A DNA stretch of 64,000 bases from Bilabrum cf. latius (Eukaryota), in assembly GCA_965178125.1 (NCBI GenBank), contig OZ237744.1, positions 62,001 to 126,000 on the forward strand. The letters run 5' to 3'. The notes below the pieces were generated by a model, which saw nothing but the letters and a program-made list of their open reading frames with translations, had not been told where the DNA came from and searched no databases. The position numbers and the translations under genes were made by a program. Position 1 is the stretch's first letter. Each line of letters begins with the position of its first letter. Below are positions 1 through 64,000 of the stretch, one piece after another.

Positions 1-3000
1 GTCCTCCTGGGCTCTGCATCGACCCGTCTGCGGACATCGCGCTGGCCCCGCGGCCGTGCCCTGCGGGCATGAGCTGTCGTCTCGACTACCCGTGGTGGCC
101 TCCCTCACCGCCCGGAAGCTGGATGTGGCGCCGCGAGGCCGCAATCTCGAGGTTCCGCATGGAGGCGAACTGCGCCATCATCATCTGTCTGGTGCGCTGT
201 GCGTGCTTGCGCATCTTCGAGTGGGGGTCGTGGTGGGTCGTGCAGCAGTTCTGCAGGACGCAGCCCACGATGACAAGGGCCACAAGCGATCCGGTCACGA
301 TCAGCGCGATCAGGCCGGTCCGCGTGCCGAACAGCCAGTCAGATAGTTCTCCCAAGAAGCTGGTCGTCGGGAACGTGCTCGTAACTAAATCTTCTCTTGA
401 TGCAGCGAGCTGCACGCAGCCGGGCCGCTGGGCATACACTGCGGCCCAGTAGGAGCCAGTCTGCGACCGCTCCGTCACGAGCAAAGAGGCCTAGCCGTCA
501 GCAGACGCCTGAATGGCTGCAAAATCTGCGACCTGTCTTGGCAGCACCGTCGCCACCAGGAGGGCCGGCACGGCGCGCAGATCGTTCGGATCCACCGCCG
601 CACCACCGCCGCCACCCACGCCTGTGCCTGGAAGGCCGATCACGACGGCATCATCGCCGTCGTCGGCGACACCAACACCCTGCCCGTTGTCGATGAACGC
701 GGGTGCATCGGCACACATCATGTCAGAAGCGTTCGTGGACACGTTCACATCCAGCGGGTGTCCCACCTTTAGCCTGAGTGCCCTTCCGTTCTGCAGGGGC
801 TGCTGCACCTTGACCAGCACTAGGTCGCCCTCGTTCATGTACTGCTTCTGGTCGCAGATCGAGCACAGGAAGTCGAGCGACTGTGCAGCGTCCACCAGTC
901 GGCTGAAGTCCTGGAACCGCGGGGAGGAGCACAGCGCGTCATCGCTGCCCCAGCCGGGCAAGCACTGGCACTGCAGTGATCCACTAGCGTTCACCAGAGT
1001 GCCTGACCCGCCGCACCTACGAGCGGTGCAGAAGTCGATAGCGGGAGACCGCAGCAGCGGACTCCCAACCGCCGCGCCCGTTTCGGCCGCCTCACCCTCA
1101 TCCCCATCCACCACCACAGCGGCACTCGCGTTCGCCGCCGCCTCCTGAAGATCACACAACCGGTCCACGCTCTCCAGATCTGTGCCGGTGAAGTCGACAG
1201 AGCTGGCTTGCACCCGCCGCGTCCCGGCCTCCTGACCCTCTGCATCCTCTCGTGCCGCGAGTCGCTGCGCCTGCGTGCGCGCGGCTGAAGCAAGGTCAAA
1301 GCTCTCATCGGCGATTGCCATGAGCGACAGGTCCACGGCGGCGTCCGCCTTTGCGTCCCTGGCGTTGTGCACGCCGATCACGAGGAACTAGGCCGTGGGG
1401 TCTTCGCGCGACACGAGGAGCGTCTGCCTGTGCTGGCCCACCGGGGCAATGGCTGAGCTCGTCGGGGTGCCAAGGATGTCCCACCCGACCCCGCTAGCTC
1501 GCGAAGCGGCTGTTGCGTTGGGATCAATTGCCTGGCCGCCAGAGCCACCGCTGTCTAGAACAGCCCGCTGCAGCTTGCCGTAAAGTCCGTTGGCTAGCAG
1601 AGCCTGTGCTCTCGCTGCGTCCTCCGTCACATTCGTGGAGGCAAACGACACCACCGCCTCGGTCTCGCCCTCCAGCGCCCGGCGATACCCCGCATAGTCG
1701 TACATGGCCAAGGCACCGCTAAGCCGGGCGAGGGGGCGGTTCAGGCGGGATTGCTCGAATGAGGCCACAACCAGAGGCCTCGCCTGATGCGAGCCAGCCG
1801 ACCTCGCCAACGCCGAAGCGCGGATCATGTCCAGCCTGACTTGCTTCGTGGACACGCCCAGACGGTGGATGAAGTATCGCCACTCGCCGGGTACGATGGG
1901 TCCCGCGAACGCCACATCGCCGCTCTGCAGTGGCGGCGCCTCTGTCTCGCACCTGGCTCCCTCGAACCCGAACGCGCACTCGCATTGCTGCCTACACACG
2001 GACCCCTCCCCGCCAATGCCGTGCCCGCTGCAATCGAATAGGTCGGGTGGGCACGCCCCCGTGGATACCTGCACGATCAGCCGAGCCTCCAGCCTGGCTC
2101 CGGCGTACCTCCCGTTCGCAACATCGACGAACAGCAGCTGATTGGCTGTGGTGCACGGGTTGTCTTCATCCTCCACCGGAAGAACCCTCTCGTACGAGGC
2201 CACGACCTCGTGGGTCTGCTGACCCGCGGCCCAGGCTCGTCTGTCACGCAAGGTGTCGGCCCCGCCTGCCTGGGGCTGTCCGTCCCTTCTGACGAGCAGC
2301 AGCGGGTCTGGCCTCCCCGCCAGAGGGTCCTCACCGGTAGAAGCAAAGTCTCCTGCCGATCCCGGGAGCGGTTCCAGGCGTGCGTACAGGGAGATGGGCT
2401 CGCTGAGCGGGAAGGTAAGCGAGTGTAGGCGGAACAGCTCCTTGAGGCGGCGGCGGTCCAGCAGCATCATGGTCTCCTACGAGCCCACGTCCAGGGATAC
2501 CCCCATTGTGAACGCAAGCGTGTGCCGAATGACGCTGCCAGGACGCGTCACCTCGACGGGGGTGACTGTGTCAGTGGTCAGGTAGCTGGAGCCGTTGGAC
2601 GATGCATTGGAGCCTTGCTAGCTCGCATCCACCTCCACCGTGACCTGACTCCTGGTCACAAATGTGACGTTATCCCGGCTTACATCGAAACGCGGGAAGC
2701 CCAGCGTCGAATGGCTAGGTACCGATCCGTCGTTCACCGTGATGGTGGCCCGCCCAGTGCGCGAGGCAGCGGCACGGCTGACGGGGTTGCCTGCTGCCGC
2801 CGAGCCAGTCTGTCCAGGCACTGTGGCGTTGCCCCGAATGTCATACTCTCCGCATGCGATGCCTTTGAACCCGTCCGCGCACTCGCACCTGGGCCTTGGG
2901 GCAACGTACGTAGTACCGTCGTCGTCCGAGCGTACGATGTAGTTCGGGTTCTCCGCAGCCGACTTGGTCGAGTCGTAGCCGTCCAAGTCTGGCCACACGC

Positions 3001-6000
3001 ACGTGCCGCGAGACGCTCCACCGCAGTCGGGTCGCCCGGGACAGTCGACAGCGGCGCATGTAAGCCCACCCCTCCAGCCGTACAGCACGCCCTGCACGCC
3101 GGGTGAAGGATCCGTGTCGGACACGAAGTTGCACTTGCAGGCCCCGTTCTCGCAGGGTACACCATAGGCACAGTCGAGGGTGGAGCAGGGGTCGCGCTGT
3201 AGACTGATTTCAACCTGCAGCGACTCGGGAGCGACTGCGGCGGCAAGCATGGTTCCGACAGAGGACAGCACGGCTTCTCCCGAGCTGTCCTGAGGGTCCA
3301 GGCGCATCTCCGTATAGTACCGCGTGCCTGCAACACCTGGCGTTGTGATGGTGCCGTTGCGATTCGCCGCGAACCGCGGGCCGGCAGGCGAAAAGGTCGT
3401 CCGCTGGAGGCCAGGCCGCCCATCCGTGGCATAGGACGCCACCAGTTGGGGCGGCTGGACGGAGGGGTTGTAGCCAGGGGGCGCGCCCACCACGGTGAGC
3501 CGGAGCAGCACGGCATACTCGAGCGAAGGCAGATCGAACGCGAAGTACTCGTACTCCTGCCTCTTTAGCGTGCCGGACCAGGCCAGCCATTCTCCCTCCC
3601 CGCTGATGTCAGCCGCACCCTCCACGCGCACCAAGGAGTTAGACTCGCCGCCCGAGCCTTGCGAAGCCTGCGCGCGCCGGCGCCACGCTGCGGCAGCGCC
3701 AAAGACGTCGCCCAGCTCGTGCACCTCTAGCTCCACGCCACGCACCTCTTCTTGGTCAAATAAGATAGGCCTGCTCTCCACGCGCCCCATCCCGGATGGT
3801 TTGGATGAGCCAATCATAAGCTGCCGACGGCCGAGGCCCAGCTCGATGCCCAGCCTCTCCTCGAGGGAGAGAGCCCTCCGACGAGCCGCACCCTGGTCGC
3901 CCGAGCCGCACTAGTCGCTGCCCGCTCCATTGTTGCCGGATCCAGTCGAGTTCGCCTGCGCACCAGTGCCGTTGCCGCTGCTGCCACCAGCGTTCAGGAA
4001 CTCTGGGTCTGCCGCCTCGCCCACGTAGCCGAGGAACGTAAATCCCACGCGACCATCGACAACTTGAGAGCAGTTCGCGCCCCGGTAGTGCACGTCTTCG
4101 CCGGTGACCTCGTCCACCTGCTCTGCGCAGATGCAGACCCCATTCTCAGAATCGCACAAGCCCTGCACGGCACCACTGCACGCCGGGGTGCCAGGACAGT
4201 CACGACGGCTGCAATCAAAACCGGTGAAGCCTGCGTCGCACTCACAAACGCCCCTTTGATCGTCACAAGTTCCTCGTGCACTGCACTCGCACACGGGCTC
4301 CCCGTTCGGGCCCGATCCAGCCACCTGCAGCAGGGGGTTAGCGGAGCACTCCGGTGAGGAGGAGGCCGCGCATCCCTGCAGAGCGCAGTCGCCCGCGCCG
4401 GGGGTCGAGTCCTTGTAGCCCTCGAAGCAGCCTCGAGAGCCTCCTTGGCTGTCCAGGCACTACCCCGCGCCGGTGTCGCAGAACCCGTGGCCGGAGCACT
4501 GGGTCATGTTGCCGCTCGTTGCGGGGCCCTTGGGGCATTCCTGCAGGTCGCAAGAGTACTCGGTTGAGCCGAAGAAACCGGCATCGCAGACGCACCTGCC
4601 GTCTTCCTGGCAGGCTCCATGCCCACTGCAGTCGTTCACATCGCATGGGTCTCCCGTGCAAAGCACAGAGGCGGGCGGGCAGTCTAGCGTTCCAACGAAC
4701 TGCGAGCCCGAAATGTCACCGAGGTTGACATTGCCGCCGTCCTTCGGGCACGTCACGGTCAGCTAGCTCCCGAATGAACCCTGCAGCGTGACCTCCAGCA
4801 GGTTCGTCTGCAGGGAACACGTGGCCTGCAGGCAGCCAGAGTGCTGCGACGGTGTCCTCGTCACGGAAGAGCGCTGGTAGGTGCCTGTGAAGCACCTCGA
4901 CTGGCTGGATGGCAGCTCTCCAAAGTACCAGAGGCTCCTGGTGTTGGGGTTCTGGCAGTCCCCCGAGGATAGTCTGGCGTAGTGGGGGCACATGTCCTTG
5001 TACTGGTCCGAGCCTCCGAGCCTGGCGTCGGAGAAGTACTGGTAGTCAACGTCAAAGGGATAGCGCACGAGATTGCATCGGGCCTGGTATCTCAGGTCCA
5101 CAGTGCACCCCGGCTGGTCCTGCACCGTGCAGAAATACCGGCTGCTCCAGTCGGAGCATCTCTGAGTCACGAAGGAGCAACCCTCGCCCCTGCCCCAGTG
5201 CAGGGTCTCTGCCCTGTCATAGGACACCCCGTACCAGCCAGAGTCCTGGAAGAGTGCCATGGAGATGGCGGAGTACACAGAGTTGGGGTCTGCCGTGCCC
5301 GTCATGAACTCGTTGTCCATGTCCCGCTTCTCCCAATGAGACCCGGCGGTGCCTGCGTAGCGATAGTAGAAAAGAAACAAATGAGGTGCTCAGCAGTTCA
5401 GGTGAGCAGTTGTGCACATACACGAGATTCATAGCATACAGGGCACGGGGCACGGGTGGTAGTCACCAATCGTGCGAACGGCAGTATGGGGTCTCAGCAG
5501 GAATCTGCTGCAAACCACCGGCAAGCGAATGCTGCGCGCTGCTCTCACCCGACCCTCCGAAATCCTCCAGCGCCCCTCCCGCGTTGGGCCAGCTGTCGCA
5601 CCCGTAATGCTCCTTGGCCTTCGCGATGACATTCTGGGTCACTATCTTCTTGATGCCGGTCTTGCCCAGCTCGTTGAAGTTGCGGATGATGTTCGAGTAG
5701 GACTCCCGCACGTTGGTGCCGGGCTTGCGGAAGGACGAGAACTTGCTCGAGCTGAAACCCAGTGCGTGAGCCTGCGAGCAATCGGTAATGGAAAAATAGG
5801 GGGGAGCGAGATGGCGGCGTGGGGGCGAGGAGCAGGAGGAGGAGCAGGAGGAGGAGGGCGGGGCGCGCGGGCGGCGGCACCAAGCTCACGATTTCATGGA
5901 TAGCTGTCGAGAGCTGCAGAGCGTAATCCTCCGGGGCCGTGGATATCCTCGCGGGTGAGAAGTTAGCATGGCCTGACACGGGGCGGCCGTACTGGTCGCT

Positions 6001-6983
6001 CTGGCAGGTTAGCGCCCACGCGATCGTGGATCCACCAGTGGGGCGAGCGGTCACGTGCAGCAAGAAGTCAGCGTTCGCCACACCGGTCGTCCTATACTCG
6101 CTTGGCATTAGGGATTCGCAGCACTTGAAGGAGTAGTAGACCACGCCCTCGCGGAAGCAGCTGAAATCCGCCATCGGGCTGTTCAGAATCAAATTTCCCT
6201 GTACCGGGGACACGGAAAGCGTGTCACTGAACCATTCCATGGCTTCCACCAGAATGGAATCCCTCAAAAAATTCTTCTTCTCGTTCGTGAGCACATCCTC
6301 AGCTTTGCATCGGTTTCGAGAATTGGCTGAGGTGCTAAGTGTAGGCAGGTACTGCGCACCATCCGACGCGCAGTTGAGGTTGCCCTCCCTGTGATAACAA
6401 AAGGGTATCCACTACGCTAAATATGTGATCACTGGCAGTAAATTTGTTGCAAGCTGCCAGCAGTCTTGCGACCACGCCAGCATGGCGCGACCTCATGAAG
6501 GACACATGAACGACGATGCACTCAGCGGGAAACGACGTGCAGGTATAATTAATTGCTTTAAAACATGCCTTGTCACCATTTTACTTAAAATAGGACTCAC
6601 CCAGTGCCGTCGAGGGCTCGATCATCCAAAACAATCCGTATCGGCTGCAGTGTTGACTGGAGCTTGCGAGTTTGCGGGCCCACTACTGTTCGGTTGCCCA
6701 TCTAGAAATGAACAGGCCGTAACACCTCTGACGCAGTTCCAGTAGCACCGTACGCTTGTTGAGACTGCGTGCGGCGATGGTGGTCCTCATGTCCAATGCT
6801 CGCCATAATCTGGTCATGGACGCACAAATGGTGGTTGTGATGGTTATGGTGGTCCTCTGAAGGCAGACTGGCCAGTTTTTGCCGCGATTCTTCCACTAGT
6901 CGGCGTGGTATTCGGCTGCATGACACTGAAGCAGCAGAAAGAGCCGCCACAGCAACTACCGCGGTAAACCTCCGCCACGCCAT
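1..6983 (-). CDS. Leishmanolysin/GP63-like zinc metalloprotease (peptidase M8) with EGF-like repeats and a C-terminal transmembrane helix; >2150 aa, 3' end runs off the window
   Basis: ATG at 6983 with signal peptide (MAWRRFTAVVAVAALSAASVSC) and propeptide HLCVHD. Introns 6389-6600, 5772-5889 and 5353-5548 (all GT-AG) join the motifs QPIRI, HEI|AHALGF (HExxH) and LEDFGGS|GTAGSHWEKR..NEFMTG. Several CSGHGxC EGF-like repeats and a TM segment (LIALIVTGSLVALVIVGCVL). One frame continues through in-frame TAG at 6702, 4763, 4460, 3911, 2618, 2477, 1388, 491 and 86. Confidence 0.92.
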
Positions 6984-7235: not shown

Positions 7236-8981
7236 TCACAGGGCGCAGCCTTCGCAAAGCTTCCAAGTCTCAAAACCCGTACCACGGTCGCATTGCGACA
7301 AATCCACACTGCCCTTGCGGTAGCAATTCACCTGGCCGCCCCCTGCGTCAGATACAGTGATCCCGTCGCACTCCGCCGTGGACCGGCACTTGGCCTGGCA
7401 CGCCTCCAGCGACATGACCCCGCAGCTGGCCCCGGGGGGGTGCTCTAGGTCCCTTGCACCGTGCGGTGGATTCCCACCCCTCGCGCCGTAGCAGTTGAAT
7501 CCCCTTGCCTTCGCCCAGGCGCCCCGCACCCATTGGTCAAACCCGCTCCCCACGTCGCACCCGTCCAGCGATATCTCAGATTTTCGGAAACACGCCACGT
7601 CGCCGTCCTTGCCTGCCTCGGTGCTAGCCGCAGTCGTGGTTGTAGTCGTCACACCGGTGCACCCATCCAACCCGTTGCACTTGGCGAAGCAGCTGTCTAG
7701 CGGCATGCTCCCGCACGAGCTGCTGGGTGGCATCTCCAGGTCACTGGCCCCGTGGCGGGTGCCGGTGCTGCCGCGGGCTCCGTAGCAATTGAGGCCCTGT
7801 GCGCGCCCAGGTGGCGTTTGGGGGAACAGGCTAGGGGGGGGCGGGCCTGGTGGCAGGGGGCTTGCACAGCAGCTCGTCGATGGCGCGACCTACCGCCTGC
7901 CTGGATGAATCCACCGGTGGATTGAGAACGAGGTAGGACTGGTTGACGCCAGGAGTGACCCAGGTGTTTGCCCCGTTCTGGTCCACGTGGCACCTGCCGC
8001 CCCGTCCCACCTCGGTGCAGTGCACTGCCGGGTATCCTCGAATCGCCGCCATTGTGACGATGGGGTCCCAGCTGCAGCGCGGGTTGCCGGGGCCCTGCTG
8101 GTCTATGATGGCACGCCGGCACGGGTTGGAATCGGGCGCGCAATCAGTCAGGACTCCACCGGTGTACACTTCATCTCCAATATCGGAGAAGATCTGCTCC
8201 ACGGAAGCCGGCATTTCATCCACACCGATGGCAGAGGTGCCTGCGCAACCAGACGTGTTGTACACACCCGAAGCGCAGTTGAAGTTGTACGTCGGGTGCC
8301 CGAACGGGTGCTGAGGCGGGTACCAGCCGCCCATCCACACCACTCTCTTCACCTTCGCAGCCACCAGGTCGGTTCCGTTGAGTGGGCTGGCCTCGTCTGG
8401 GCCTGACTGAAGAAGTGCGGCGATGTTGGTTACGAAACCGATCGACGCGATCGTGATGCCCTGGTCTTCAGCATTCGCCAGCGCCCTGCGGTACACAGTA
8501 ACTGCGTCTTCCACCTGACTGGAGCTCGTCACCGGGCCTGGAAGATTTGCCACGATGTCGTCGATGTAGTGGCCCTTGACCCATGCGCCGCTTGGGGACC
8601 GACCGAACGGGCCTTTGTACGCACCGAGGGTCGTCTTGTCTCGGTTATACCAATGCATCAAACTGGACACAGCACCTGCGAACCAAGATGAACTCGAACG
8701 CGATAATGGCTCGGTCGCTCAATGGTAAGCGTGGATCTCAAAGGCGCACCATCGCTTACCGATTGCCTTGGGATAGCCTACATCATGAACCACCGCGGCA
8801 ATGCTAACCTCGCCAGCATCCTGTAACGCATTTGCCATGCATATTGCGATTACATCATCAACATCATAGGATGCATCGGTATATCAATGATCAGCTAGGG
8901 TGTGCCTGCGTCTGGTGCACCAATTGCACTGGAGGCAACAACTGTACAGACAATTGCGTAGCGCATGCATGCATGAAACAT
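7236..8981 (-). pseudogene. Secreted inosine-uridine nucleoside hydrolase-like protein with two C-terminal Cys-rich (PAN/apple-like) repeats; two apparent frameshifts (pseudogene or assembly error)
   Basis: ATG at 8981 with a hydrophobic leader. The motif LIIDTDASYDVDDVIAICMANAL is intact only if an extra AT at ~8881-8884 is removed. Intron 8676-8759. Motifs ITIASIGFVTNIAALL, VVWMGGWYP and RCSWDP are present. A second frameshift in the GCGCGC run at ~7801-7806 separates the hydrolase from two repeats (WAxAxGxNCYGARG...DLExPPxxSCGxMxLxxCxAKC). In-frame TAG at 8895 and 7831; ends TGA at 7236-7238. Confidence 0.7.
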
Positions 8982-9122
8982 CAAAAGTGTAGCGATACGT
9001 TCTGGTCGCAGGTCGCTCGCTCTGCTGGCCAAAACGAGCTTGGAAACTGGATGCAGGACCGGAACCAAATGTTGAGGGGCAGCCCGGCTCCGCCGACGCG
9101 CAAAAATTGCTCGATGCGTGGC

Positions 9123-13127: not shown

Positions 13128-13166
13128 GGCCCTTTGGTTGCGTCCAGCGGTCGGGTGATCCGTCGG

Positions 13167-13224: not shown

Positions 13225-13581
13225 ATGATGCTTGACGAGGCGTAGGCTTTGGATGATGAGGGGGTCAGTGCTGTGTTGTGCGGATCAGGGTCTGTATTGA
13301 ATGTACAGAGCGTGACGCCCGGTTCGATGGCCTGACGACAGTCGGTATCCATGGTGCTGCCTGCCTGCTCTCAGCCAGTATTTTTCGCCAGATGCGTGCT
13401 GTCACCGCAGAACGGCTACACGACTGATCAAATGTCTTCGTCGGCGTAAGCAATACAGCCAATACAATGAGGATCTGAACTTGAAGGCCAAAACGCCTCG
13501 GATCCTATTTGTAACGTTATGATACAACGAAAAACAGGATTCACGTGGACGACATTACACTTTGAGGAAAGAACGGGCGAT

Positions 13582-14978: not shown

Positions 14979-15550
14979 GTTCCTTGCGACGATTGCGTGG
15001 CTTCGTGGCGTGCCTGCTACCGCCATTCGGCGACTGGTAGGCCTGCCGCGCTGCTTGGAGCATGCTTCTGACCGCCGATTGGATCAGATGTGCTGTTTGG
15101 TCGTGTGCGCCCAGCCAACAATGCTACAAGGTAGCATTTTGTGAATGGATTAGGGGTAGTGGAGGGTGGAGTTCGGTGCCTTGCTGACTGGCTGGTGTTG
15201 ACGCCTACAAACGCTTCTGAACAGAATTTTTGTCGGCAGCGATACATGTCCGGGTTCCAGCTGTCAACTTTAGCTGCTTGTCGTTGCAATCCTTCCCCTA
15301 CTGCCCAGTGTGTTGTCGGTGGTCGACCGTGACAAGTACTGTGTGAGACTCAGGCTATTGTGGCTTGCTGGGTGCATACAACTCGCGAAATTTCATTCCT
15401 ACGCGATACCTATTGAATAACGATCGATAATCTATGGGTTTATGTGGCTCAGTCCCCATGATTGTTGTGCATTCAGAGTATAGGTTGCATGTTGCTCCAG
15501 ATCCGCATGAGCCACCCGATTCGCCCCCATTCCTTTCATCTAAAGGAACC

Positions 15551-23095: not shown

Positions 23096-23253
23096 ACTGG
23101 AGTATGTTTCCAAGACCCTGGAGCAAGAGAAATCAAGCAAGGAAAGAAATAAAATCACGAGAGAGAGAGAATAGATATATATGTATCAAAGCACACACTA
23201 CCCAACTGCAACGACCACCCCGTGGGGCAATCGCATCAGGTAGGTCGAACGGA

Positions 23254-51400: not shown

Positions 51401-52209
51401 TTGCAGGGGAAAAATCCTCGTATTCCAGCAACTCTGGTGTATGCGCACGTGCAAATATTCGTTGGCTGCACGAGTGCGGCATCTTGCACAACGTTGGTGA
51501 TGACGAAGTGCAATAGGCACGCTGTAGCTAGTCCCTTCAGCACGCTCGCTAGAAAAACTGTTCTTGATCTGACTTGCTGCACCAGGGCAGCCCCAAGCTA
51601 GCTTTGCGCCGATGGTCGCAAGCCAAGCCCGTCACTGTCGCTGCTGCTGCTGTCGTGCGAGGCAAATGGCGTGGCATCACGCATCAGACCCTCTGCGACG
51701 CAGAACAAACTTTGCTTACTCTAATGGCCAATGCGGGACGCTGTACCAGATTGATTTACACTGGTGGGAGCCACTGCTGTGCTACGGTTGCGAAAGCACT
51801 GGCACGACTGAACACCTGGATCCAAGCCCACCAGCGCAGTGCGATAGAACGCATACACATCGCCACCCCGGAGAAGCCAATTCATGGTGGCATCATTGCC
51901 CGTCCCGGGTGCGACGGTCCTGTTCGTACGCCGAGTGTCGTCATCATTTGCCAGATTGCCGCGAGCTCCCATACATTCGCAGCTGCAATTCTCCTTGAAG
52001 TAACCACGCTCAACGGAAGCGAGGTATTCGCTGGCACTGTCTGGCGTGAATTGAGTGCCATCTTGTGAGAGAGCAGCAAGTACCACAAGCATCTATCTCT
52101 GACCCATACGCAATGCTGAGTCCAGGCCGGGGTTCGGCTGTGGTTTGGATTCTTTGCGACCAGCGGATCCGCCTGCGGGAACTGAACTGCAAGTCGGGTT
52201 GCAGCATGA

Positions 52210-52261
<52 letters not shown>

Positions 52262-54162: not shown

Positions 54163-54529
54163 AATCTGGTGTGCGTTGGGGCAATCAGCTCGTCTGGTTC
54201 ATGCAGCCAAGACTGAAAATAAAACACTTGAATAGCTTGCAATTAGCCGAGACCGAGACAAAAGTAGAGTCGTTGAACAGTGTGTTAGATCTAAATTGAA
54301 TTTGGGTGTGGAATTGGCACTGGAGCCGCAACAATGCGCTGCACCCGCAACTGATGATGACCCTGATAACGAAAAGGTCATTATGTAGCACAGGCTGTGC
54401 CGCTCGGTAGTCTAAAACACACAATCTATTGATAGTTTCATTGTTCCTTCGGCCACAACCATAAAATTCGTCTATTGCAGGCATGCAACGGACCTACTCC
54501 CCTCGAGCTTGAACGGGGCATGAATAAAA

Positions 54530-57500
54530 TTACTTGCCCTTCGATGACTTTGCCACTAGCCGCAACCGGGTGTACAGCAGCTGCATAGACCGTGCTTGCT
54601 TTCTGCCGAACTGCTGCAAGGAGTGGGCCGGCTCCTCACCCGCCTTGCCCTCCTTTGCGTCATCCAGCCCCTTCACCTCAAACCTCTCGGTGGGACGGAC
54701 CGATCGCAAGGGTGACGTCGGGTGCAGCAAGTGGTGGGAGGCAGAGGCGGGCAGCATTACTGGCACCCCAACAACCTCTTCGAGCTCGTCATCGCTCCCG
54801 ATCAGGTCCAGCTCTTCCTCGTGCAGCAGCGGCTGGCCCTCCCTTCCCTCCATGGACTGCAGCATCAGCCGGACGGAAGTGCGGTCTACCTTGCCGCTGG
54901 CCGACCGCCAGGCCTTCCTGCACACCTCCAGCTCAGCTTTATACGCAGTGCTCAGCTGAAACGAAGGCGTGGAGGCTCCACTGCCGCCATGCCGCGCCCC
55001 GCTGCCGGCCCCAGTACCATGCCTGCCAGCGCCAGCAGCACTCACCGACGGTTGCACGTACTGCGTCATGTCCGTGCAACCGCCCTCTACAACTAGCGCG
55101 CCATGGATAGCCAGGTCTTTGCCATCCAATGGCCGCATCAAATCGTGGCCCCGCGGCAGCCTTGTTGACAAGGGGTGCGAATCGCACCACGCAAGCCACT
55201 GCCTTGCATGCGATGCCACGGCTGCAGACCCGCGGCACCAGCGCAGCACCTCCGTTGAGCGCACGCACAGCCTCCCAATCCCTCGGAGCACGGCCTCTGT
55301 CCACCTGTAGTACGTCTGCCCCCTCTTGACCTCGTCGAAGAGCCCAAGGAGCACGGTTTCTCTCCTCCACTCGGTCAGCGAGTCCACGAGCGCGTCCTTC
55401 ACGGCAGACAGGTCCCCGCCCATCTCGAGGTATGCCTTGTCGACCGCCTCCGTATCATCTTCATCCAGGTCGCCTTTGGCGATAGCCTTGGCGACTCGTT
55501 TGGCTCGCTTGGCACACCACTTTAGTCGCCTGTACGAGCCCGCCAGCAAACCCACCGCGCGCATAGGCACCTGAGTCCCTGTGCCTTCCTGCTCCCGAAC
55601 GGCCTGCACCGCGGCAGCGCATGCAACCTCGGACACGGTCCTATTTTCCCTGCACAACAGGGAGAGGACTCGGCGCCCCAGCCGCGATCTGGTCGAGTCA
55701 GACATGGAGTGCGCCAACACCCTCAAGAATGCGAACGAAGTCACGCTGCTCCCGAACCTCCCAGCGCCTAGCTTACCCTGAGCTGCCCCTCCGCTAGCCG
55801 CACCGCCTTCTGCTACCTACCCAGTCGATTCACGCTGCTGCGAGGCTGGCAGCAGCTCCGCCAGCAGCTACAGGCAGGGCGTCGGCAGGCTAACAACGCA
55901 GTCGTTCGGCGAGACCAGCTCGACAGCAGGCGCTGCGGTGCCAGCACTCGCTGAGGCAGCCCTCGCGTTCGTCACACTTGCCATGGCCGCCGCAAGCCTC
56001 CGGACGGCGCCCGCATCCCCGGCACCTGCGGCTGCGATCAGCTCCACCCACTGCCCTTCGATGCCCTCGAAGGGGCCCAGGCCGGCCTTCGCGATCGCCT
56101 CGAGCAGACCGGCCACGGCGGCCACCCGAGAGGACCCGGGGCCCATTTGAGACACGGATAGGAGACCGCACGGCGGGCCGTCGTCGTTGCTTGCTGCTGA
56201 TCCGCCGGCTTTCTTGATTGCTTCCGCGTTCACTTTCTCATCGGCGTCGGAGGCAAAGGCAGTCGCGAACGCGGCGGGCAGCGTCGTACGGCACAGTCGC
56301 TGGACGATGTTCAACTCAGTTGCATCCCCGGTTGTTACGTCGCTCGCAGAAGCAGCGGATACTTCATCGCCAGCACTGCTCTGTGCCGCTGCGAGATACG
56401 GCTGCAGGGTCCGGACGGCAGAGAGCAGCGCTTGCGCCACGGCCTGCCTCACCTCATCGTGCCCGCACTTGGCAAGCATGGACTCCAGCATGGTTGACCT
56501 GCCGACCGTCTCTCCCATGAACTCAAGGAACCACGCCGCACCGTCGGCGTAGCGGCGCAGCAATTGAGTGCATAGCACGTGCCGCCACTGGCCCATTGGC
56601 GTCCGGCCAGCCGCGTCCAACCGCGAGAGGGTGCCAAAGAGATACTGAGCAGCGAGCTGCACCTGCGCCACTCCGGACGCCCCTGGACCCGCGGATTCGG
56701 CGCCGGAATCTGCCACAGAATCTGCGGCGCGGGGGCCTCCCCGCAGCATGTCTCGAATTCTCGCGGCGTCCATGCGGCCCGCTGCCCTCGCATGTGCCTC
56801 GTCAAGCGCAATTGACGTGGCTTCCTCTAGCGCCTTGGCAGCTTCCAAGTCGTCCTGCGGGAAATGGACCTTGATCCCCGGTGGCAGCTCAAGCTTGATG
56901 CTGTGGCCTTGCAGGTCCGTGGGCGGCGCCTCGTGCATCGCTGCCACGTCACAGGCAAACGCAGCGTACGACGGTTGCGTCACCACGTCGATGTACTGTC
57001 CCTCCAAGTTCTGCGACCATGCCTCCTCCCAGATCTCCCGGGGAAGAGGCACTCGGCCCGAGCTCTCTCTGGCGTTCGTGACGTGAGACTTCGTGCGGCG
57101 TAGCCTGGGTGCTTGCCCAGGGTTGTCTCCGCCTGCACCGCTCGATGGACCCTCGCTCTGCGGCCCACTGCCGCCAGCAACACACTCCTCCTCCTCCTGC
57201 TCTTCATCTTCCTCATCTTCTTCCTCGTCCTCTTCGTTGTCGCCGGCCGGAGCTCCGGGTGACCCGGCACTATCGTTCGCCCCCTGACCCACCTGTACAC
57301 CGGCAGCCTTCTCGCCCTGGGGACCCTTTCGCCCCTCCACCGGCTCCTACAGGGCCTGGTGATACACATCCACAGCACCTTCAAGCCAGTCCACGACGGT
57401 GTCCTCTGACAGGCGGTCGTACATGAGAAGGAAGCCGTTCTGATTGCCCCCATCGGACCCTCCGAAGGCCTCAGTGACGATCTTTGACTTGGGGAACGGA

Positions 57501-60500
57501 TCCACCCGCCTGTCGTTGAACTCGAACCAGCCTGCATCCTCGTCCAGCTCCAATTCTTTCATGGCTGCCTGCAGCGCGCCGTTCTGCCTGGTTTGCAGGT
57601 GATGGTCAGTCAAGCCCGCCCAGGACACGGCGCCCTCGCCCCGCAGCGCGCTCTCGGCAGCCTGCAGCAGCTCCGCCGCCTTCTCCTTGGACTCCGGAGC
57701 CTTGGGGGCCTTGAGCACGACAGGCAGTCTGCGGTCGCGGATGAGGCTGTAGTAGTGACCGGCTTGAGCCGTGCCTCTGTGAATGACCACACCGCTCAGC
57801 AGGAAAACGGACCTGCACGGCGCCTCGCTCTGCGATGTGAGCTCTTCGGGGAGGGCGGCAACGCTCGGATCCGGGGTGATGCTGGGACTGGCGGACGGCT
57901 GCTTGCTCTTTAAAGGGGGTTGTTTCGGACTGATCTTTCCTCCTTCCGCGTCTTCCGCAGCTGCCTGTGCTTGCGCCTTGATTGCGTCTCTGTGCCGCCT
58001 GGCAAGGCCGGCTGCCGTGTACGGGTGCATGTCCAGTACGTGCGGGAACGCATAAAAATCGTTCACCTTCTTCATCACGAAGGTCTGCATGTCAAACGCA
58101 AAGCGCCTCAGGTGGAGAACCATGTGTGGCGGCAGCGACTGCAGCATCTGTCGCTTGGAGGTCCGTTTCGCGACGCTTGTAATCGCGCCATCCGGGCTGC
58201 TATCGTCCAGCTGCTCCCACTTGTAGTCATCGACCACATCCGCCTCCATGGCGGCATCCAGCCCTTCCTCCAGGGTGCTCTTTCCCTCTACAGGCACAGA
58301 GAGGAACTTCGAGGGCTCTAAGCGGGTCTTGAAGTACCGCAACTTGCTGGCATGCTCGATCGTAACAGGGGGTTCGCCTGCGCTGTCAGTTTGCTAATCC
58401 GACTGCCGCTCGCCGCCATCCAGCACGCTCACCTGCTCAATGTCAAGAATATCTGCGAGCATCTTTCTGTGTGTGGTACCGCTGACGGAATTATCAATGA
58501 TCTGGAAAAGTTTGGTGAGGAACTCGCTCGCGTCCTGCTGCCTGCTCGTGTCGACCGGCGCGCCGTCCCACTGCAGCTTCTTGCAGAAATGAGAGGGATC
58601 GTGGTACCTCATCTGCGACTCTTGCAGGGAGCCAAATACTCGCTGTAACTCGTACATGAGCTGTAGGTCAGTTTCATCCGTGCCCTTGCAACCGTAATCG
58701 CAGCTGAATAGGCTGCTTTCTCCTGCCGCGCTAGGCTCCTCGTCACCGGTGCTGACGTCCCACCGAATGACAGGCCTCTCGTCCTCTGACGTGTTGTCGA
58801 AGGAAAGAACAGCTTTCCTAAATGGCAGGATCATGAAGAACTGCTGCAGCGAACTGTTCATGTAGCAAGTGGAGCCCAAGTTGTGAAGACCAACGAACCC
58901 CGTCTCGCTGCGTTGTGCCGAGGTGGAGGCTACGGCACCGCTCGCAATATCCCAACGGTCCCCATCCGTGCCCTGAATCCTACCTTTGGCAGACATTAGG
59001 GCGTCCATGGAAGGGACAGACAGCCACAACGGCAAATCGGGGAAGCTCTCGATGAGCTCGTCGGCCTGCTGCGCTGCCTGCCTCGCGACTGCCGCTGCGG
59101 GGCCGCTAGCTGGGCCGTGCTGCGAGGCCAAGAGACGTACTACATGCTCGTGGCACTCTGGCCGCCCCCTGCACAGCGCAGTCAGCATCTCAAGCGCCCT
59201 CGATCGGCTGATCTTGGTCTTGGCCATCGGAGCCATGGCCTTATCGGCACGGTTCTGCTCGATCAGCCCAGTGCTTGCCCCCGTGGCCTGGCCCCCAAAC
59301 GCGAAGAGCACCCGGAACCAGAGCCAGTTGAGAAGCAGGGGCGCCCCCTTGGCGATCGTGTCGTCTGTCGAATCCGTCCCAGACGCCAGAGCGGTGGCAT
59401 CATCTCCATTGCCAGAGGACCTTCCAGCTGCAGAACCAGTGCCAGGGCCTCTTTCCTTGATCTGAGCTTCCCGCCCGATGAGCCCTGCGATTGCCATGAG
59501 CATAGAGACGAGAGCTGTGTCCCTCGAGTCTGTGGACCTGGTTTCTGCAACTGGCAGTGCTGCCGCTTCCACAACGAGCCGGGCAAAGAGGCTGGCAGAG
59601 GATGATGGCGCAGCCACCCCGATGGCTCTGCAAAGGGCGCGCATCATGGTCGAGAACGCCATGGATCTGGCCCTGTGCTTGCCCCTGGTGCTTGGCATCA
59701 TGGACAGGCACCTGTCAGCGAGAGCGATGAGAGGCGCGTGCGCGTCCATGGACCTAACCGCGCGCTCGGCCGCCTCTTGCGACATTGCTGGGGCATGCTC
59801 TCGGGCAGCAGAGAGGAGGGTGGCCGACGCCTGCGCTGCTAGCTGAAATGCCAGCCTCGTGGCACCGGCGCGAGCGTGGGGGTCCTTGGCCACAAGCGCG
59901 CAATCGAGCAGCTGCTGCTAAAGATTCGAAACTCCAGCAGCTGAGCTACCGCTTTCGCGGGAGGTTCCATCCTAACCGCAGTCGTTTCGAAGGATGTCCA
60001 GCGCCGCAGCTGCACGGTCATCGGCGCTCGGCAGCAGCCCGATGGCTCTTGTCAGTAGCCTGCCAGCCCACAGCATGGCAGCTCCTGCAGTGCTGCACAC
60101 CTCTTCAGACGGCGAAGACTTGGAGAAGCCCAGGCCGCTCGCCCAAGCAAGCGGAGCCCTCCGCGCTAACTGTGTGTTGGACGAGGCTCTAGAGGCGAGC
60201 CGGATGACAGCCAGACCAGCAGCTATCAGCTTCGTGTGAACTTCTGGCGCGGGCATCCCAAACACCGATGCCAAATCTACCGGCTGCGCGCCTTCGGTGG
60301 ATGGCTCTGCCTTACCAGCATCTTCACCGCCATCTTCGCACGGAGCATGCAACGATGCCATGATGCACAGCATTCGGCACGCGATTGCAGCGGACGCGAG
60401 CTGCATGGCCCCTGCCGACCTGCAGGCCGCGTCAGCTGCCGCAACCACCGTACCATCTGCCGCGCTTGAGCTCTGCCTCTCGAGCCCGGATGCGGCCGAT

Positions 60501-63500
60501 TGCAGCCCTGAAGGATCCACCGCCAACAAAGATTGCAGCATGGGTGTACCATCGCTGACGTCGCCTGACTCATCCGGACGGGTCGCAGTCACCAGATCCA
60601 GCAGAGCCGCAGCCCCACTGCTTCGAGAAAACGCGTCAAACCAAGCCCTGCCTCGGGTCTAGGATGAAGATGAAGACGATCCTTCTTTAGAACCCGCCTT
60701 TACAACCGCACCAGTTATCCCCAATACTGCCGCTGCCCCCGCATCGACTCGTGCTGGCGAGCCAGCTGATTTACCCTTGGTGCCTGCACCACGATCGGCT
60801 GGTTTCCCCGCCGCAGCCTTCCCATCCTTACTATCAGCCTCCTCCGCTTCCTTCTCCTTCTCCCTTGCAGCTTCCAGCATCCGCACCTCTAACGCCTGCA
60901 GACCGAGCAATAGCCGCAGAGACGGGGTGAAACCGCCACCTTCCCCGGTTCCCCACAGTCTCGACCACTGCTCCGGTCCCTTCTCATCCGAGCACGCCAG
61001 CTGCTTGATGGGCTTTGCTCCCGATGGAATAGAAGCTACCGTGCTTGCAAGGGAACCTTCCTTCTCGTCGGCCGCAGGATCGGACCCGACCAGTAGCCCG
61101 CCGTGCTTTGCCACATCCTCATTGAACTGGAAGGCAGGGCACTTCCCTTTCCGTAGCATCTTCAGGATAGCATCTGGCAGAGGGAAGAGCGATAGCAGTC
61201 GCCAAGCAAGAGCGCCCAGGCGCGCACCTGCAAGCTGCAACGAGCTGCGAGGCCGGGGTGTGCCCGAAGCATCTGCCACGACGCACCGGGACACGTCGCT
61301 GTCCGCATCTGCAAGGGTCAGCAGGGCAACTATGGCGGAGCATGCGGCGGGGTGTTCCGATAGGACTCCAGCAAATGCAAGCCGCGCGTCCGTTTCATCC
61401 ATCCCTGCATGCGGCGACCACGCATCCACAGGGACGGCATGGGCCGCACTGGAAGAGTCCACGCCGAGGGCGACCCACCCGCCGGCGCTGACAGATTCAC
61501 CGGCATCCGATCTGAGGGCGCGGTCTTGCACTGCAGTGCCATGCATCGAACCGATCCCAAACTCCCTAATACGCTTAGCCTGGATGTTGTCGATTGCGTC
61601 CCCGCCCGTTTTTCTCGACAGCAAGGTGGGCTGAGCCGGCCTCTGCCTCCATTCGAGTGCCCTTAGCATTTGCTCTGCCGGTGGGACCTCGTCGCCGGTC
61701 CCTGCAGCAGCAGGGGGGCCCAGCAGCGAGCCGCTGCCAGCGGCGCTAGCCCCTTCGTCTGCACTCGAACCTACCTTGTTCCCCACATCAGGTTCCGTCT
61801 CCTCTTCTTCGCCATCCAACGCGGTATCTTGCGCTGGACTCAGGAGCAGCTCGGCTCGAAGATTGGCCATGATGCCAACCGCAGATATCTCGACGATGTC
61901 GAAATCGACAGGGATAGGGGTGGCATCGCCCGCAGTCTTTCTAAGCCGTACTCGGGTCACGCGCCAGCCTGCATCCTTTGCGATGACCTTGCGCATGTCG
62001 CCCACCGTTGCGTCGGGAGGAACACGAACCTCATGCCTGATGAATAGCGGCTTGCCTCTCTTTCCCGCCCTGCCGCCTTTGCTTGGCTCCATTCGCTCCA
62101 TCTATATATTGACAGTGTACGCCTTGGTCTTCTATTTCCGATCATACACGTACCTGGTCCACTTGAGCTGACTGCTCTGCACTGGGTGCGATGACTTGCT
62201 GCCTGGAGAGTTGGGCTTGGTGCCCATTGTGCTCAGGTCGGCACTGCCACTCCCAGACGACGAGGACTTCCCCGCAGACGAGCCAAGCGTTCCGTCCCTG
62301 ATCGATCGCAGGGAAGGCACCTGTCCGTGACGTCGACCACCTGAGCCGCCACCGGTGAACTGGCTGGGGTGCTGCCTGGGGTCGAACCCGCCTCCGTGGC
62401 GGCTGGCCGCGCTACGTCGAGCAGCAGCCGCGAGGCCGCCCTCCCCGCCCGCCGGAGCGCCTCCACCCGTCGCCCCGGAGCGATCTGCCATCGACAGGCG
62501 ATTCATGATTGCCCGGCCAAACCGGATTAGGAGAGACAGAGCGGGGCCTGCCCTCCGCAAAACATCCCGGCACACCGTCTATACCCTGGATCTATCACAT
62601 TCGCTACCCGAGCCAGCGCCACGGACAGTGAGGCCCGCCTTGTGCGATATCTCAACGCCGTAACTCAGCAGCACCGCGGTCACTCGCCTCAAGCACTCCA
62701 TGGTAAAGTCGCGCCACGTGGCTCTGTAGCCGAACTTGTGCCTCTGGTTCCGCTTGATGTGCAGGTGGCACGCGAGAAGGAGAGCACGTGCGTGCTGTAC
62801 GCTGCTGCACTTGGCACCGCCCGTGCCCCCAGTCTCCAAGGTCTCGAGGGGTTCGCCCGCCTCGTTCACGCCTAGAATGTCATCTCTGTGGAAACAAGAT
62901 ACCCTCCCGCCGTCCCTGCCCCGCAGCACCGCCTGCACTAGGTCGTGCAAGGGAGAGGGTGCCACCGGCGAGCTCTCTGTCCCGTTCCCAAGCGGGACAA
63001 AGTCAGCAGGTTCCAATGCATCGGGGCGCAAGCTAAACGTCCACAGAGCGTCAACGCCGCTAATCTCAAGAAGGGGCCGGTTCGGCTGCAGGTCCAAGTC
63101 CTGTGGGAGCAGCCCGACGCCCCGCGCCCCCGCCGTGGGGTCAGCGTCTGTACCCCCACCGGCAGCCTTGAATGCCTGCAGCTCCCCATTCATCCTCCCA
63201 AACATCCTCCAGAGCGCTCGGAACAGCCTGAACGTCGACATCCGCAACGATCCCGCGAAGTATGCAGCATGAGGCTCAGGCTTACTGAGACAGTCTTGCA
63301 AATCAGCAATACCTCCACTACTGCCGTCACCAGCCCCGGAGGCAGCTGCGTCCGACAGTGTCGCGCCCTTGGACAAGACCAAGTCGATTGGCAGAGCGAC
63401 GCCCAGCGTTGCGTCTTGAGGCTCACTACCATCTCCTGTCTGACCAGGTGCAGTGCCTTGAATTGCGGGGAGAACCTTGCCAACATACAGCACCTGCGCT

Positions 63501-64000
63501 TCCTCAACGTCGATAAAGTCGTTGCACGTGGTCGACGAGGCCCCGACAGGCAGCGAGTACAGAGGCAGCCCGCTGCGTACGAAGTCCATGCAGGCCTTCG
63601 CCTCGCGCGGCTCGACAGCCTGCAGCACCATCACGGTCCACATCTTCTCCAGCTGCCCCGCGGGCACCTTGGCCTGGCTGGCCACTAGGACGTACTTGAG
63701 GAAGGACAGCCTGTCCTCGATGCCCGCCTGCAGCGCGCCGCAGCTGCGACCATTCGTGGCATCGCCCGGCACGTCCACGGACGATAAATCACCGAACTTC
63801 ATCAGGTCTCCAGAGCTGAGGCGCCCGTCGAGGAGCCGCTCCAGCGCCCACTCCCTTGCTTGTGCAAGCGAGGGCACCGGAGTGCCGGGACCTCCATGGC
63901 TCCCGTCCTCAGACTTGCGCATGGCAGACCAAGCCGACAGCTCGAAGAGTTTCCTGCGGTCAGGCAGGGCACCAACGCCACCCATCGCGTCTCTCTTCGC
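54530..64000 (-). CDS. Large ubiquitin carboxyl-terminal hydrolase (USP9/USP24/USP34-like, peptidase C19), >3150 aa, 5' end outside the window
   Basis: Cys box GFVGLHNLGSTCYMNSSLQQFFMI, QQDASEF, LHLRRFAFD, His box LSGVVIHRGTAQAGHYYSLIRDR and WFEFND. Single frame from the window edge through TAG at 62579, 62132, 62102, 60659, 59972, 59918, 58394, 57347, 55868 and 55817; ends TAA. Confidence 0.92.

What the first reader, a model, noticed from the sequence alone, without database searches (positions are those of the whole stretch)
1..64000. Variant nuclear genetic code: UAG is a sense codon (most likely Gln) while UAA and UGA remain stops
Seen: about 84 in-frame TAG codons (hand count) in 12 of 13 genes on both strands. 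The same frame and protein resume after each, and no internal TAA or TGA occurs in the intact genes. TAG falls inside conserved domains: kinase subdomain XI (16667), translin helices (20233, 20134), the receiver domain (48772, 48532), between the USP Cys and His boxes (58394), an EGF repeat (4460) and ARM repeats. All 12 visible gene ends are TGA (7236, 13125, 17210, 17499, 19270, 20687, 31356, 48175) or TAA (14976, 31186, 48487, 54530). Established: nuclear reassignments normally change UAA and UAG together (ciliate, diplomonad and ulvophyte code). UAG-only reassignment is rare, reported for the fornicate Iotanema spirale (Gln), an uncultured rhizarian (Leu) and some phyllopharyngean ciliates. 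Inference: this GC-rich genome with 84-329 nt introns does not look like a ciliate, so it may be an independent origin, possibly in a stramenopile-like flagellate. It implies an eRF1 that ignores UAG but reads UAA/UGA, plus a tRNA with a CUA anticodon.
Basis: partly seen in the sequence, partly recalled or inferred. Interest (0 to 1): 0.97.

Follow-up and report, generated by a model that had tools for sequence, protein, structure and literature searches.

The report
UAG read as glutamine, stramenopile flagellate
This nuclear DNA comes from a protist related to the flagellate Cafeteria that reads the stop codon UAG as glutamine but still stops at UAA and UGA, a rare change of the genetic code that I did not find reported for this group.

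Summary
Under the standard code the longest open frame is 643 aa. With TAG read as sense, frames of 4886, 3156, 1903, 1796, 1439 and 1245 aa open; reading TAA as sense adds nothing. Sixteen long frame segments hold 87 in-frame TAG in 19,319 codons and no TAA or TGA, although those are common out of frame.

Spliced, polyadenylated transcript contigs from three runs keep TAG unchanged at 20 of 31 sites.

Close relatives were found: a syntenic metagenome contig that also carries in-frame TAG, and Logan protein fragments. They give 16 TAG-to-residue pairs. Of the 12 in conserved context, 7 are Gln, 2 Ser, 2 Glu and 1 His. The three Gln pairs checked at DNA level are CAG versus TAG. Gln beats every other residue by at least 8 log10 likelihood units. 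Ser (Scotinosphaera type) and Leu (rhizarian type) are rejected.

All 12 visible gene ends are TGA or TAA.

The nearest named relative is Cafeteria (bicosoecid stramenopile), on one gene only. The suppressor tRNA and eRF1 could not be examined. This is a new member of the known UAG-to-Gln code type, probably an independent origin.

The parts
2..5389 (-). Leishmanolysin (M8) C-terminal part, EGF repeats and a long extracellular/TM tail; runs off the window end; 8 in-frame TAG (4763, 4460, 3911, 2618, 2477, 1388, 491, 86)
   Evidence: Pfam PF01457 E=4e-40, EGF_2, EGF_TEN; TAG positions
5548..6492 (-). Upstream exon of the same M8 peptidase gene (profile positions 93-223); 1 TAG in the frame (6412), possibly outside the coding part
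   Evidence: Pfam PF01457 E=6.9e-27
7236..8718 (-). Two overlapping frames (nucleoside-hydrolase-like; Cys-rich repeated domain) ending at TGA 7236; 3 TAG (8103, 7890, 7831); exon structure not resolved
   Evidence: Weak PF01156 hit, below its cut-off
8808..13127 (+). Secreted protein with two pectate-lyase-like beta-helix domains; 6 TAG (9423, 9585, 9675, 10119, 11139, 11193); TGA stop at 13125
   Evidence: PF12708 E=5.6e-25. Relatives' fragments, 79-94% identical, give E, Q, E, fragment end, Q, Q at the six TAG sites
13471..14978 (+). Mitochondrial phosphate carrier; intron 13845-14173 (329 nt, GT..AG); no TAG; TAA stop at 14976; poly(A) loose end at 15230
   Evidence: PF00153; spliced contigs in X5, X6, X7 and the poly(A); homologues end within about 10 residues of the same C-terminus
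15431..17212 (+). AGC-type protein kinase; 4 TAG (15557, 15791, 16667, 16988); TGA stop
   Evidence: PF00069 E=3.7e-39; PDB matches to PKA and S6K; transcript contig 15421-17254 with 0 differences; orthologue in L001
17499..18881 (-). RING-H2 finger protein; intron 18694-18809 (116 nt); 3 TAG (18666, 18159, 17982); TGA stop
   Evidence: PF13639; spliced contigs in X5, X6, X7
19270..20700 (-). Translin/TRAX-family protein; intron 19512-19763 (252 nt); 5 TAG in the frame (20404, 20401, 20290, 20233, 20134); TGA stop at 19270
   Evidence: PF01997 E=4.9e-15; PDB translin and TRAX matches; spliced contigs; last-exon frame
20687..23185 (-). Glycosyltransferase-8-like protein with a repeat-rich middle; 4 TAG (21578, 21377, 21335, 21287); TGA stop
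   Evidence: Weak PF01501 hit; contig X6 20842-21440
24814..26949 (+). TmcB-like membrane protein with TPR; 5 TAG in the frame (24862, 25027, 25330, 26179, 26914); may continue into the next frame
   Evidence: PF25474 E=4.5e-15
27451..31188 (+). 1245-aa membrane protein with no known family; 5 TAG (27676, 29077, 30112, 30832, 31102); TAA stop
31356..33608 (-). Expressed 750-aa frame with no known family; 6 TAG (33513, 33105, 32979, 32610, 32076, 31881); TGA stop
   Evidence: Transcript contig 31246-33299 with 0 differences
33517..48177 (+). Giant single frame of 4886 codons (alanine/glycine-rich, helical repeats); 16 TAG; TGA stop at 48175
48487..54198 (-). Hybrid histidine kinase (membrane sensor, HATPase_c, receiver); 11 TAG; TAA stop at 48487, directly after the receiver domain
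   Evidence: PF02518, PF00072; relatives P0137, P0296 and P0138 at 54-62% identity, with Q opposite TAG 51598
54530..64000 (-). Giant USP-type ubiquitin hydrolase, 5' end outside the window; 10 TAG; TAA stop at 54530
   Evidence: PF00443 E=1.2e-37

Best explanation
The window is nuclear DNA of a heterotrophic stramenopile whose nearest named relative is Cafeteria (Bicosoecida). In it UAG is an ordinary sense codon for glutamine, making up about 11% of Gln codons (87 TAG, 570 CAG, 161 CAA). UAA and UGA are the only terminators. This is the code written as NCBI table 15. Shown here: UAG is read through in expressed, conserved genes; it stays in the mRNA; it lines up mainly with Gln and with CAG in close relatives; and at least one related sequence shares the trait. 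Inferred, not shown: decoding by a tRNA-Gln with anticodon CUA (one base away from CUG) that pairs with UAG but not UAA, and an eRF1 that has lost UAG recognition while keeping UAA and UGA.
For: (1) Frames: the longest is 643 aa under the standard code. With TAG as sense they reach 4886, 3156, 1903, 1796, 1439 and 1245 aa. TAA as sense changes nothing among the longest.
(2) In-frame versus out-of-frame counts: TAG 87 vs 120 and 130; TAA 0 vs 50 and 66; TGA 0 vs 336 and 356.
(3) Real genes: 11 Pfam families, with TAG inside 6 domain envelopes.
(4) RNA: contigs of runs X5, X6 and X7 skip three GT..AG introns, and X5 carries a poly(A) loose end. They cover 20 of the 31 TAG sites in 13300-33299 with 0 differences. 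No run shows another letter at any of the 31 sites, including the evenly covered DNA-like run X1.
(5) Meaning: of 16 TAG-to-residue pairs with close relatives, the 12 in conserved context give Q 7, S 2, E 2, H 1. An empirical substitution table from the same alignments (2798 residue pairs) puts Q ahead by 8.4 log10 units over K and 10-11 over E and S; with all 16 sites the lead is 6.3. The three Q pairs checked at DNA level are CAG versus TAG. At TAG 11139 the relative and 4 more distant homologues, including Monosiga, all have Q. Q is also the commonest residue there among 42 distant homologues aligned without a gap (14 of 42).
(6) Stops: 12 of 12 window gene ends are TGA or TAA. The carrier ends at TAA and the kinase at TGA at the same C-termini in L001.
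(7) L001 is syntenic (carrier then kinase) and has 4 in-frame TAG of its own in these two genes.
(8) Taxon: the carrier is 70% identical to protein clusters that contain Cafeteria, and 58-64% to other named eukaryotes. In the tree it groups with L001 (100) inside a 10-row group with Cafeteria (SH-aLRT 93).
Against: Five of the 12 conserved-context pairs are not Gln (2 Ser, 2 Glu, 1 His). Real CAG/CAA Gln is conserved at 78% in the same alignments, against 58% for TAG. At the TAG in L001's carrier, the window and the next relative have Ser, and none of 131 homologues has Gln (K 45, R 43, S 17, G 15). That column is simply variable. There is no tRNA gene in the window or in L001-L004, no eRF1, no genome and no protein-level data. 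The RNA evidence is from assembled contigs, not raw reads, and the runs' RNA nature is inferred from splicing and the poly(A). Only 12 (+2) gene ends were seen, so occasional UAG termination is not excluded. The placement rests on one gene, and the branch joining it to Cafeteria is below the tool's 95% mark.
Confidence: 0.88

Rival explanations
1. UAG is a sense codon for another amino acid: Ser (as in Scotinosphaera), Leu (as in the rhizarian exLh and some ciliates), Glu or Lys.
For: Two Ser and two Glu stand opposite TAG in conserved context. One TAG follows a run of six Ser in the USP. UAG=Ser with TAA/TGA stops exists in a green alga (passages).
Against: The likelihood is 10-11 log10 units worse for Ser and Glu, and 8.4 worse for Lys. 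Leu appears in 0 of 16 pairs. The Ser codons opposite TAG are AGC and TCC, not the one-step TCG, whereas the Q pairs are one-step CAG/TAG. The organism is not a green alga.
Confidence: 0.04
2. UAG is ambiguous. It is mostly read as Gln but still terminates some genes depending on context, or it is read by near-cognate tRNAs with mixed products.
For: Only 14 gene ends were seen. TAG is conserved as Gln less often (58%) than CAG/CAA (78%). C after TAG is somewhat more frequent (29 of 87) than after all codons (24%), but this is not significant.
Against: None of 12 window ends and neither of the 2 L001 ends is TAG. In-frame TAG is about 70% as frequent as out-of-frame TAG and is spread along whole genes, up to 16 per gene. 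Near-cognate readthrough could not sustain that.
Confidence: 0.05
3. Both UAA and UAG are reassigned (ciliate/ulvophyte table 6), and TAA is merely rare because the genome is GC-rich.
For: The usual coupling of UAA and UAG (passages). TAA is the rarest stop trinucleotide in the window (192 vs 400 TAG).
Against: There are 0 in-frame TAA, where about 25 would be expected from the CAA:CAG ratio applied to 87 TAG. Reading TAA as sense joins no two long frames. Four genes end at TAA. These include the carrier, at the C-terminus shared with homologues and with L001, and the histidine kinase, directly after its receiver domain.
Confidence: 0.01
4. Artefact or non-functional DNA: assembly consensus errors, pseudogenes, or RNA editing of UAG before translation.
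For: None found.
Against: Four independent runs (one DNA-like, three transcript-like, from three studies) agree at the TAG sites that their contigs cover, and none shows another letter at any of the 31 sites. The genes are spliced, polyadenylated and conserved, and related sequences have TAG at other positions in the same genes.
Confidence: 0.01

Closest known systems
Iotanema spirale (Fornicata) nuclear code, UAG=Gln (Panek et al. 2017, PMC5304391; passages seen)
   Same: Only UAG is reassigned, to Gln, and UAA is kept as a stop. A tRNA-Gln(CUA) and an eRF1 change are predicted.
   Different: Iotanema is an anaerobic metamonad known there from a transcriptome. This is an aerobic stramenopile (it has a mitochondrial phosphate carrier), GC about 61%, with genomic DNA. 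Both UGA (8 of 12) and UAA (4 of 12) are used as stops.
Ciliates with UAG=Gln only: Hartmannula sinica, Trochilia petrani, Protocruzia tuzeti (McGowan et al. 2024, PMC11687900; abstract and passages seen)
   Same: The same codon table (NCBI table 15 type).
   Different: A different supergroup lineage. The ciliates strongly prefer UAA as stop, whereas here TGA is the commoner stop.
Scotinosphaera sp. (Ulvophyceae), UAG=Ser with TAA and TGA stops (Li et al. 2021, PMC8271138; passages seen, supplements not seen)
   Same: A UAG-only reassignment with both other stops kept, in a nuclear genome.
   Different: The residue is Ser there and Gln here (Ser is 11 log10 units worse). That organism is a green alga; this one is a stramenopile.
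Rhizarian exLh and TARA phyllopharyngean ciliates, UAG=Leu
   Same: UAG-only reassignment.
   Different: Leu appears opposite TAG in 0 of 16 pairs.
UAR=Gln codes (NCBI table 6: many ciliates, hexamitin diplomonads, some ulvophytes, Amoeboaphelidium)
   Same: Gln as the new meaning; a tRNA-Gln anticodon mutation as the likely route.
   Different: UAA is still a terminator here (0 in-frame TAA; 4 gene ends).

Membership tests
UAG=Gln, UAA/UGA=stop nuclear code (NCBI table 15 type) | In-frame UAG in conserved, expressed protein-coding genes | tested here: met
   87 in-frame TAG in 19,319 codons; TAG inside 6 Pfam domain envelopes; transcript contigs keep TAG at 20 of 31 sites laid
UAG=Gln, UAA/UGA=stop nuclear code (NCBI table 15 type) | UAG aligns predominantly with Gln in homologues | tested here: met
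   Q in 7 of 12 conserved-context pairs; Q ahead by at least 8 log10 units; CAG/TAG at 3 of 3 Q pairs checked
UAG=Gln, UAA/UGA=stop nuclear code (NCBI table 15 type) | UAA and UGA still terminate | tested here: met
   0 in-frame TAA or TGA, against 50-66 and 336-356 out of frame. 12 of 12 gene ends are TGA or TAA, and two of them are confirmed against L001's C-termini
UAG=Gln, UAA/UGA=stop nuclear code (NCBI table 15 type) | UAG not used as a terminator | tested here: inconclusive
   0 of 12 window ends and 0 of 2 L001 ends are TAG. The sample is too small to exclude rare use
UAG=Gln, UAA/UGA=stop nuclear code (NCBI table 15 type) | Cognate tRNA-Gln with anticodon CUA | not testable with these tools
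   No tRNA gene in the window or in L001-L004; no genome held
UAG=Gln, UAA/UGA=stop nuclear code (NCBI table 15 type) | eRF1 N-domain changes that weaken UAG recognition | not testable with these tools
   eRF1 is not in the window, and no genome or transcriptome is accessible
UAG=Ser code (Scotinosphaera type) | UAG at conserved Ser positions | tested here: not met
   S in 2 of 12 conserved-context pairs, with codons AGC and TCC; likelihood 11 log10 units below Gln
UAG=Leu code (rhizarian exLh, TARA ciliates) | UAG at conserved Leu positions | tested here: not met
   L in 0 of 16 pairs
UAR=Gln code (NCBI table 6) | UAA also read as sense; UGA the sole stop | tested here: not met
   0 in-frame TAA; 4 gene ends at TAA; frames are not joined when TAA is read as sense
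Bicosoecida / Bigyra (stramenopiles), as the organism's lineage | Groups with Cafeteria in phylogeny | tested here: inconclusive
   One gene only. It is 70% identical to clusters holding Cafeteria, against 58-64% to other named taxa. The tree group with Cafeteria has SH-aLRT 93, not starred. No rRNA in the window

The most novel reading that the evidence does not exclude
This is the first nuclear genetic-code change in stramenopiles. It would be an independent origin of UAG=Gln in a small clade of Cafeteria-like flagellates, shared by at least two related organisms, while more distant relatives in the same carrier tree show no sign of it. It arose in a GC-rich genome, where UAG is not expected to have been a rare stop. 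That would favour an ambiguous-intermediate route over codon disappearance. The organism also appears in several public culture-derived runs, so it may be cultivable and experimentally tractable.
Probability: 0.55. Interest if true: 0.82.

Novelty: new member of a known kind. Interest (0 to 1): 0.75.

Why it matters
UAA and UAG almost always change meaning together, and UAG-only nuclear reassignments are known from only a handful of lineages (passages). A further, apparently independent case adds a data point on how eRF1 can be made to ignore UAG alone, and on whether a codon must first become rare before it is captured. This case lies in a different supergroup lineage and a GC-rich, intron-bearing genome, with genomic DNA, transcript data and at least one relative sharing the trait.

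There is also a practical point. Standard-code gene callers shatter this organism's genes. The relatives' proteins in public databases are split at the predicted TAG sites; for example, three fragments lie on one 4613-bp contig. Any assembly or metagenome bin of this clade therefore needs table 15.

Tried and rejected
- **Whole genome:** none is held.
- **RNA genes:** no tRNA in the window or in L001-L004, and no Rfam family in the window. The suppressor tRNA and rRNA-based placement were therefore out of reach.
- **Neighbour-residue classifier for the TAG residue:** it recovered held-out Gln only 12.5% of the time and ranked R, T, L, V, S within 2.3 units. I dropped it as powerless.
- **PDB alignments of kinase and translin:** the TAG columns are variable (K, E), so they were uninformative.
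- **Whole-USP homologue search:** 3 weak hits, best 30% identity over 12% of the query, and no close relative of that length.
- **Protein atlas on the carrier:** only generic carrier clusters, with no taxon signal.
- **Sequencing-run search:** no holder is on record as RNA. The RNA nature of X5-X7 is inferred from spliced joints and a poly(A). Regions 24639-31308 had next to no transcript-like cover, so 11 of the 31 TAG sites laid have no listed transcript contig.
- **High-depth stretch 23300-24500:** no tandem repeat and no Pfam family.
- **L001's 527-aa downstream frame:** no Pfam family and no counterpart in the window.
- **Literature:** searches found no report of a nuclear code change in stramenopiles. 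The library holds only CC-licensed PMC papers and bioRxiv, and supplements were not consulted, so an existing report elsewhere is not excluded.
- **Considered and rejected:** a green-algal (Scotinosphaera) origin, suggested by the Ala/Gly/Ser-rich giant proteins, is rejected by the carrier's relatives. Pyrrolysine or selenocysteine is rejected because of the alignment with Gln and CAG.
Full report
**What is in the sequence.** The window has 61% G+C. Under the standard code its longest stop-to-stop frame is 643 aa. With TAG read as sense, frames of 4886, 3156, 1903, 1796, 1439 and 1245 aa open on both strands. Reading TAA as sense instead leaves the top of the list unchanged, and reading TGA as sense gives at most 1001 aa.

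In 16 long frame segments (19,319 codons) there are 87 in-frame TAG. Fifteen of the 16 segments carry at least one; the mitochondrial carrier has none. On the same coding strands TAG occurs 87 times in frame and 120 and 130 times in the two other frames. TAA occurs 0 vs 50 and 66 times, and TGA 0 vs 336 and 356. From the out-of-frame rate, a 4886-codon frame without TAA or TGA has probability about e^-103.

**These are real genes.** Pfam finds:
- leishmanolysin plus EGF
- a pectate-lyase-like two-domain protein
- a mitochondrial carrier
- a protein kinase
- a RING finger
- translin
- a GT8-like protein
- a TmcB-like protein
- a hybrid histidine kinase (HATPase_c plus receiver)
- a USP hydrolase

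TAG lies inside the M8, EGF, kinase, translin, receiver (twice) and UCH envelopes.

**The codon is in the DNA and in the mRNA.** A run search found four runs of one sample holding about 95% of the stretch's words, and three further runs from two other studies holding 54-83%. I laid four runs on 13300-33299.

X1 covers the region evenly (depth about 34-39) without differences at TAG sites. X5, X6 and X7 have very uneven depth. Their contigs skip three introns with GT..AG ends: 329 nt at 13844/14174, 116 nt at 18693/18810 and 252 nt at 19511/19764. X5 carries a poly(A) loose end at 15230. They are therefore transcript assemblies, although the run records do not say so.

The listed contigs cover 20 of the 31 TAG sites in the laid region with zero differences: kinase 4, RING 3, translin 5, GT8-like 3 and the 750-aa frame 5. 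No run shows another letter at any of the 31 sites. This excludes consensus error and, at contig level, RNA editing. The other 11 sites lie in poorly expressed genes with no listed transcript contig.

**Which amino acid.** The literature shows that UAG-only reassignments exist for Gln (Iotanema, three ciliates), Leu (a rhizarian, TARA ciliates) and Ser (the green alga Scotinosphaera, which also keeps TAA and TGA as stops) (passages).

Distant PDB homologues and a neighbour-residue classifier were uninformative. The mitochondrial carrier, however, revealed close relatives: 89% and 79% identical unnamed proteins.

- **L001.** A metagenome scan returned L001, a 5444-bp contig with the same gene order, carrier then kinase. 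Its longest frames also lengthen when TAG is read as sense (453 to 612 aa and 344 to 527 aa). L001 has in-frame TAG of its own: two in the kinase and two in the carrier.
- **Histidine kinase.** A search restricted to shorter proteins found two fragments, 62% and 54% identical (2 hits among 8000 candidates scored), and a third fragment (58%) from their cluster.
- **Pectate-lyase-like protein.** The exhaustive HMMER search found 1161 hits, of which the best 150 were listed. The top ones are four fragments 79-94% identical. Three of them lie on one 4613-bp contig, that is, one gene split by the gene caller.

Together these give 16 TAG-to-residue pairs. In the 12 whose ±5 context is at least 60% identical, the partner is Q 7 times, S 2, E 2 and H 1. 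The four poorly aligned pairs give S, P, D and H.

I built a substitution table from the same alignments (2798 residue pairs). With it Gln is best by 8.4 log10 units over Lys and by 10-11 over Glu and Ser in the 12 sites, and by 6.3 over Lys in all 16.

At DNA level the three Q pairs checked are CAG versus TAG. The His pair is CAC versus TAG. The two Ser pairs are AGC and TCC, not the one-step TCG.

At TAG 11139, Q stands in the close relative and in all four more distant homologues aligned, including Monosiga. Q is also the commonest residue among 42 distant homologues aligned there without a gap (14 of 42).

One relative fragment ends exactly where the window has TAG 10119. Two others end opposite a window Gln. 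This fits TAG in the relative, but I could not see that DNA.

Against this, TAG is matched by Gln less often (58%) than CAG/CAA Gln is conserved (78%). At L001's carrier TAG, none of 131 homologues has Gln, although that column is variable (K 45, R 43, S 17, G 15).

**Stops.** No in-frame TAA exists, where about 25 would be expected if TAA shared TAG's meaning at the CAA:CAG ratio. Reading TAA as sense only lengthens frames by 42-186 codons at their ends and joins no two long frames.

The carrier ends at TAA at the C-terminus shared with its homologues, and L001's carrier also ends at TAA. Both kinases end at TGA after the same last residues. The histidine kinase ends at TAA directly after its receiver domain. 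No gene end is TAG (0 of 12, plus 0 of 2 in L001). The sample is small.

**Who it is.** No rRNA is present. The carrier's best named matches, at 70% identity, belong to two 90% clusters that contain Cafeteria roenbergensis/burkhardae proteins. Platysulcus, Cantina, Fabomonas, oomycetes, Vitrella and Diplonema are at 58-64%.

In a 30-row maximum-likelihood tree the window and L001 pair with full support and join an unnamed metagenome sequence (85). They sit in a 10-row group with both Cafeteria paralogues (SH-aLRT 93, below the tool's 95% mark).

The organism is thus a stramenopile, probably in or near Bicosoecida. It is not a ciliate, green alga, fornicate or rhizarian. This rests on one gene.

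Other carrier-bearing contigs of more distant relatives show low TAG:TGA trinucleotide ratios (0.11-0.20, against 0.49 in the window and 0.78 in L001), and one ends its carrier at TAG. This suggests the change is confined to the window/L001 clade.

**How it most likely works.** This part is inference from established knowledge (passages in PMC5304391). A tRNA-Gln with anticodon CUA, one mutation from CUG, reads UAG but not UAA. An altered eRF1 no longer recognises UAG but keeps UAA and UGA. Neither component could be examined.

**Novelty.** Seven full-text searches and passages in three further papers gave no report of a nuclear code change in stramenopiles. The library is limited to CC-licensed PMC papers and bioRxiv, and supplements were not consulted. 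The code itself is known (table 15 type), so this is a new member of a known kind, probably of independent origin.

**Verdict.** Confidence is 0.88 for UAG=Gln with UAA/UGA stops in a Cafeteria-related stramenopile.

Noticed in passing
window 23300-24500: This stretch between the GT8-like and TmcB-like genes has about 20-30 times the depth of its surroundings in the DNA-like run X1 (795-1155 vs about 37), so it is a multi-copy element. It is also present in transcript-like contigs (23913-24500). It has no tandem repeat and no Pfam family in its frames.
   Followed up: partly
window 52213-52266 (- strand): The histidine kinase holds a run of 17 Cys interrupted by one Tyr, encoded by a TGC trinucleotide repeat.
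   Followed up: no
window 21695-22550 and 21887-21953: Contigs in X1 (depth 45) and X6 show a second, diverged version of part of the GT8-like gene, with many substitutions within short spans. This could be an allele or a paralogue. No difference falls on a TAG site.
   Followed up: no
window, all 87 TAG sites: The base after TAG is C in 29 of 87 cases (33% vs 24% for all codons) and G in 25 of 87 (29% vs 41%). The next codon is Gln in 9 of 87 (10% vs 3.8% background). By my hand calculation the base skew is not significant (chi-square about 6.7, 3 df).
   Followed up: partly
window 13471-14978: The most highly covered transcript in the laid region, the mitochondrial phosphate carrier, has 12 CAG/CAA Gln codons and no TAG. 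This fits avoidance of the new codon in highly expressed genes, but one gene is too few to test it.
   Followed up: no
L001 3863-5443: Synteny with the window ends after the kinase. L001 continues with a 527-aa multi-pass membrane frame (3 in-frame TAG) that has no counterpart in the window, where a RING-finger gene on the other strand follows.
   Followed up: partly
L033 5494: A more distant carrier homologue (58% identity) ends at TAG at the conserved C-terminus, so that organism uses TAG as a stop.
   Followed up: no
P0129 (member of the cluster of P0011): A protein in the Cafeteria carrier cluster (at least 90% identity) is filed under a Symbiodinium assembly, and the window's own sequence is held by runs labelled with several different organism codes. 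Bicosoecid-like flagellates evidently travel as unnoticed companions in cultures of other protists.
   Followed up: no
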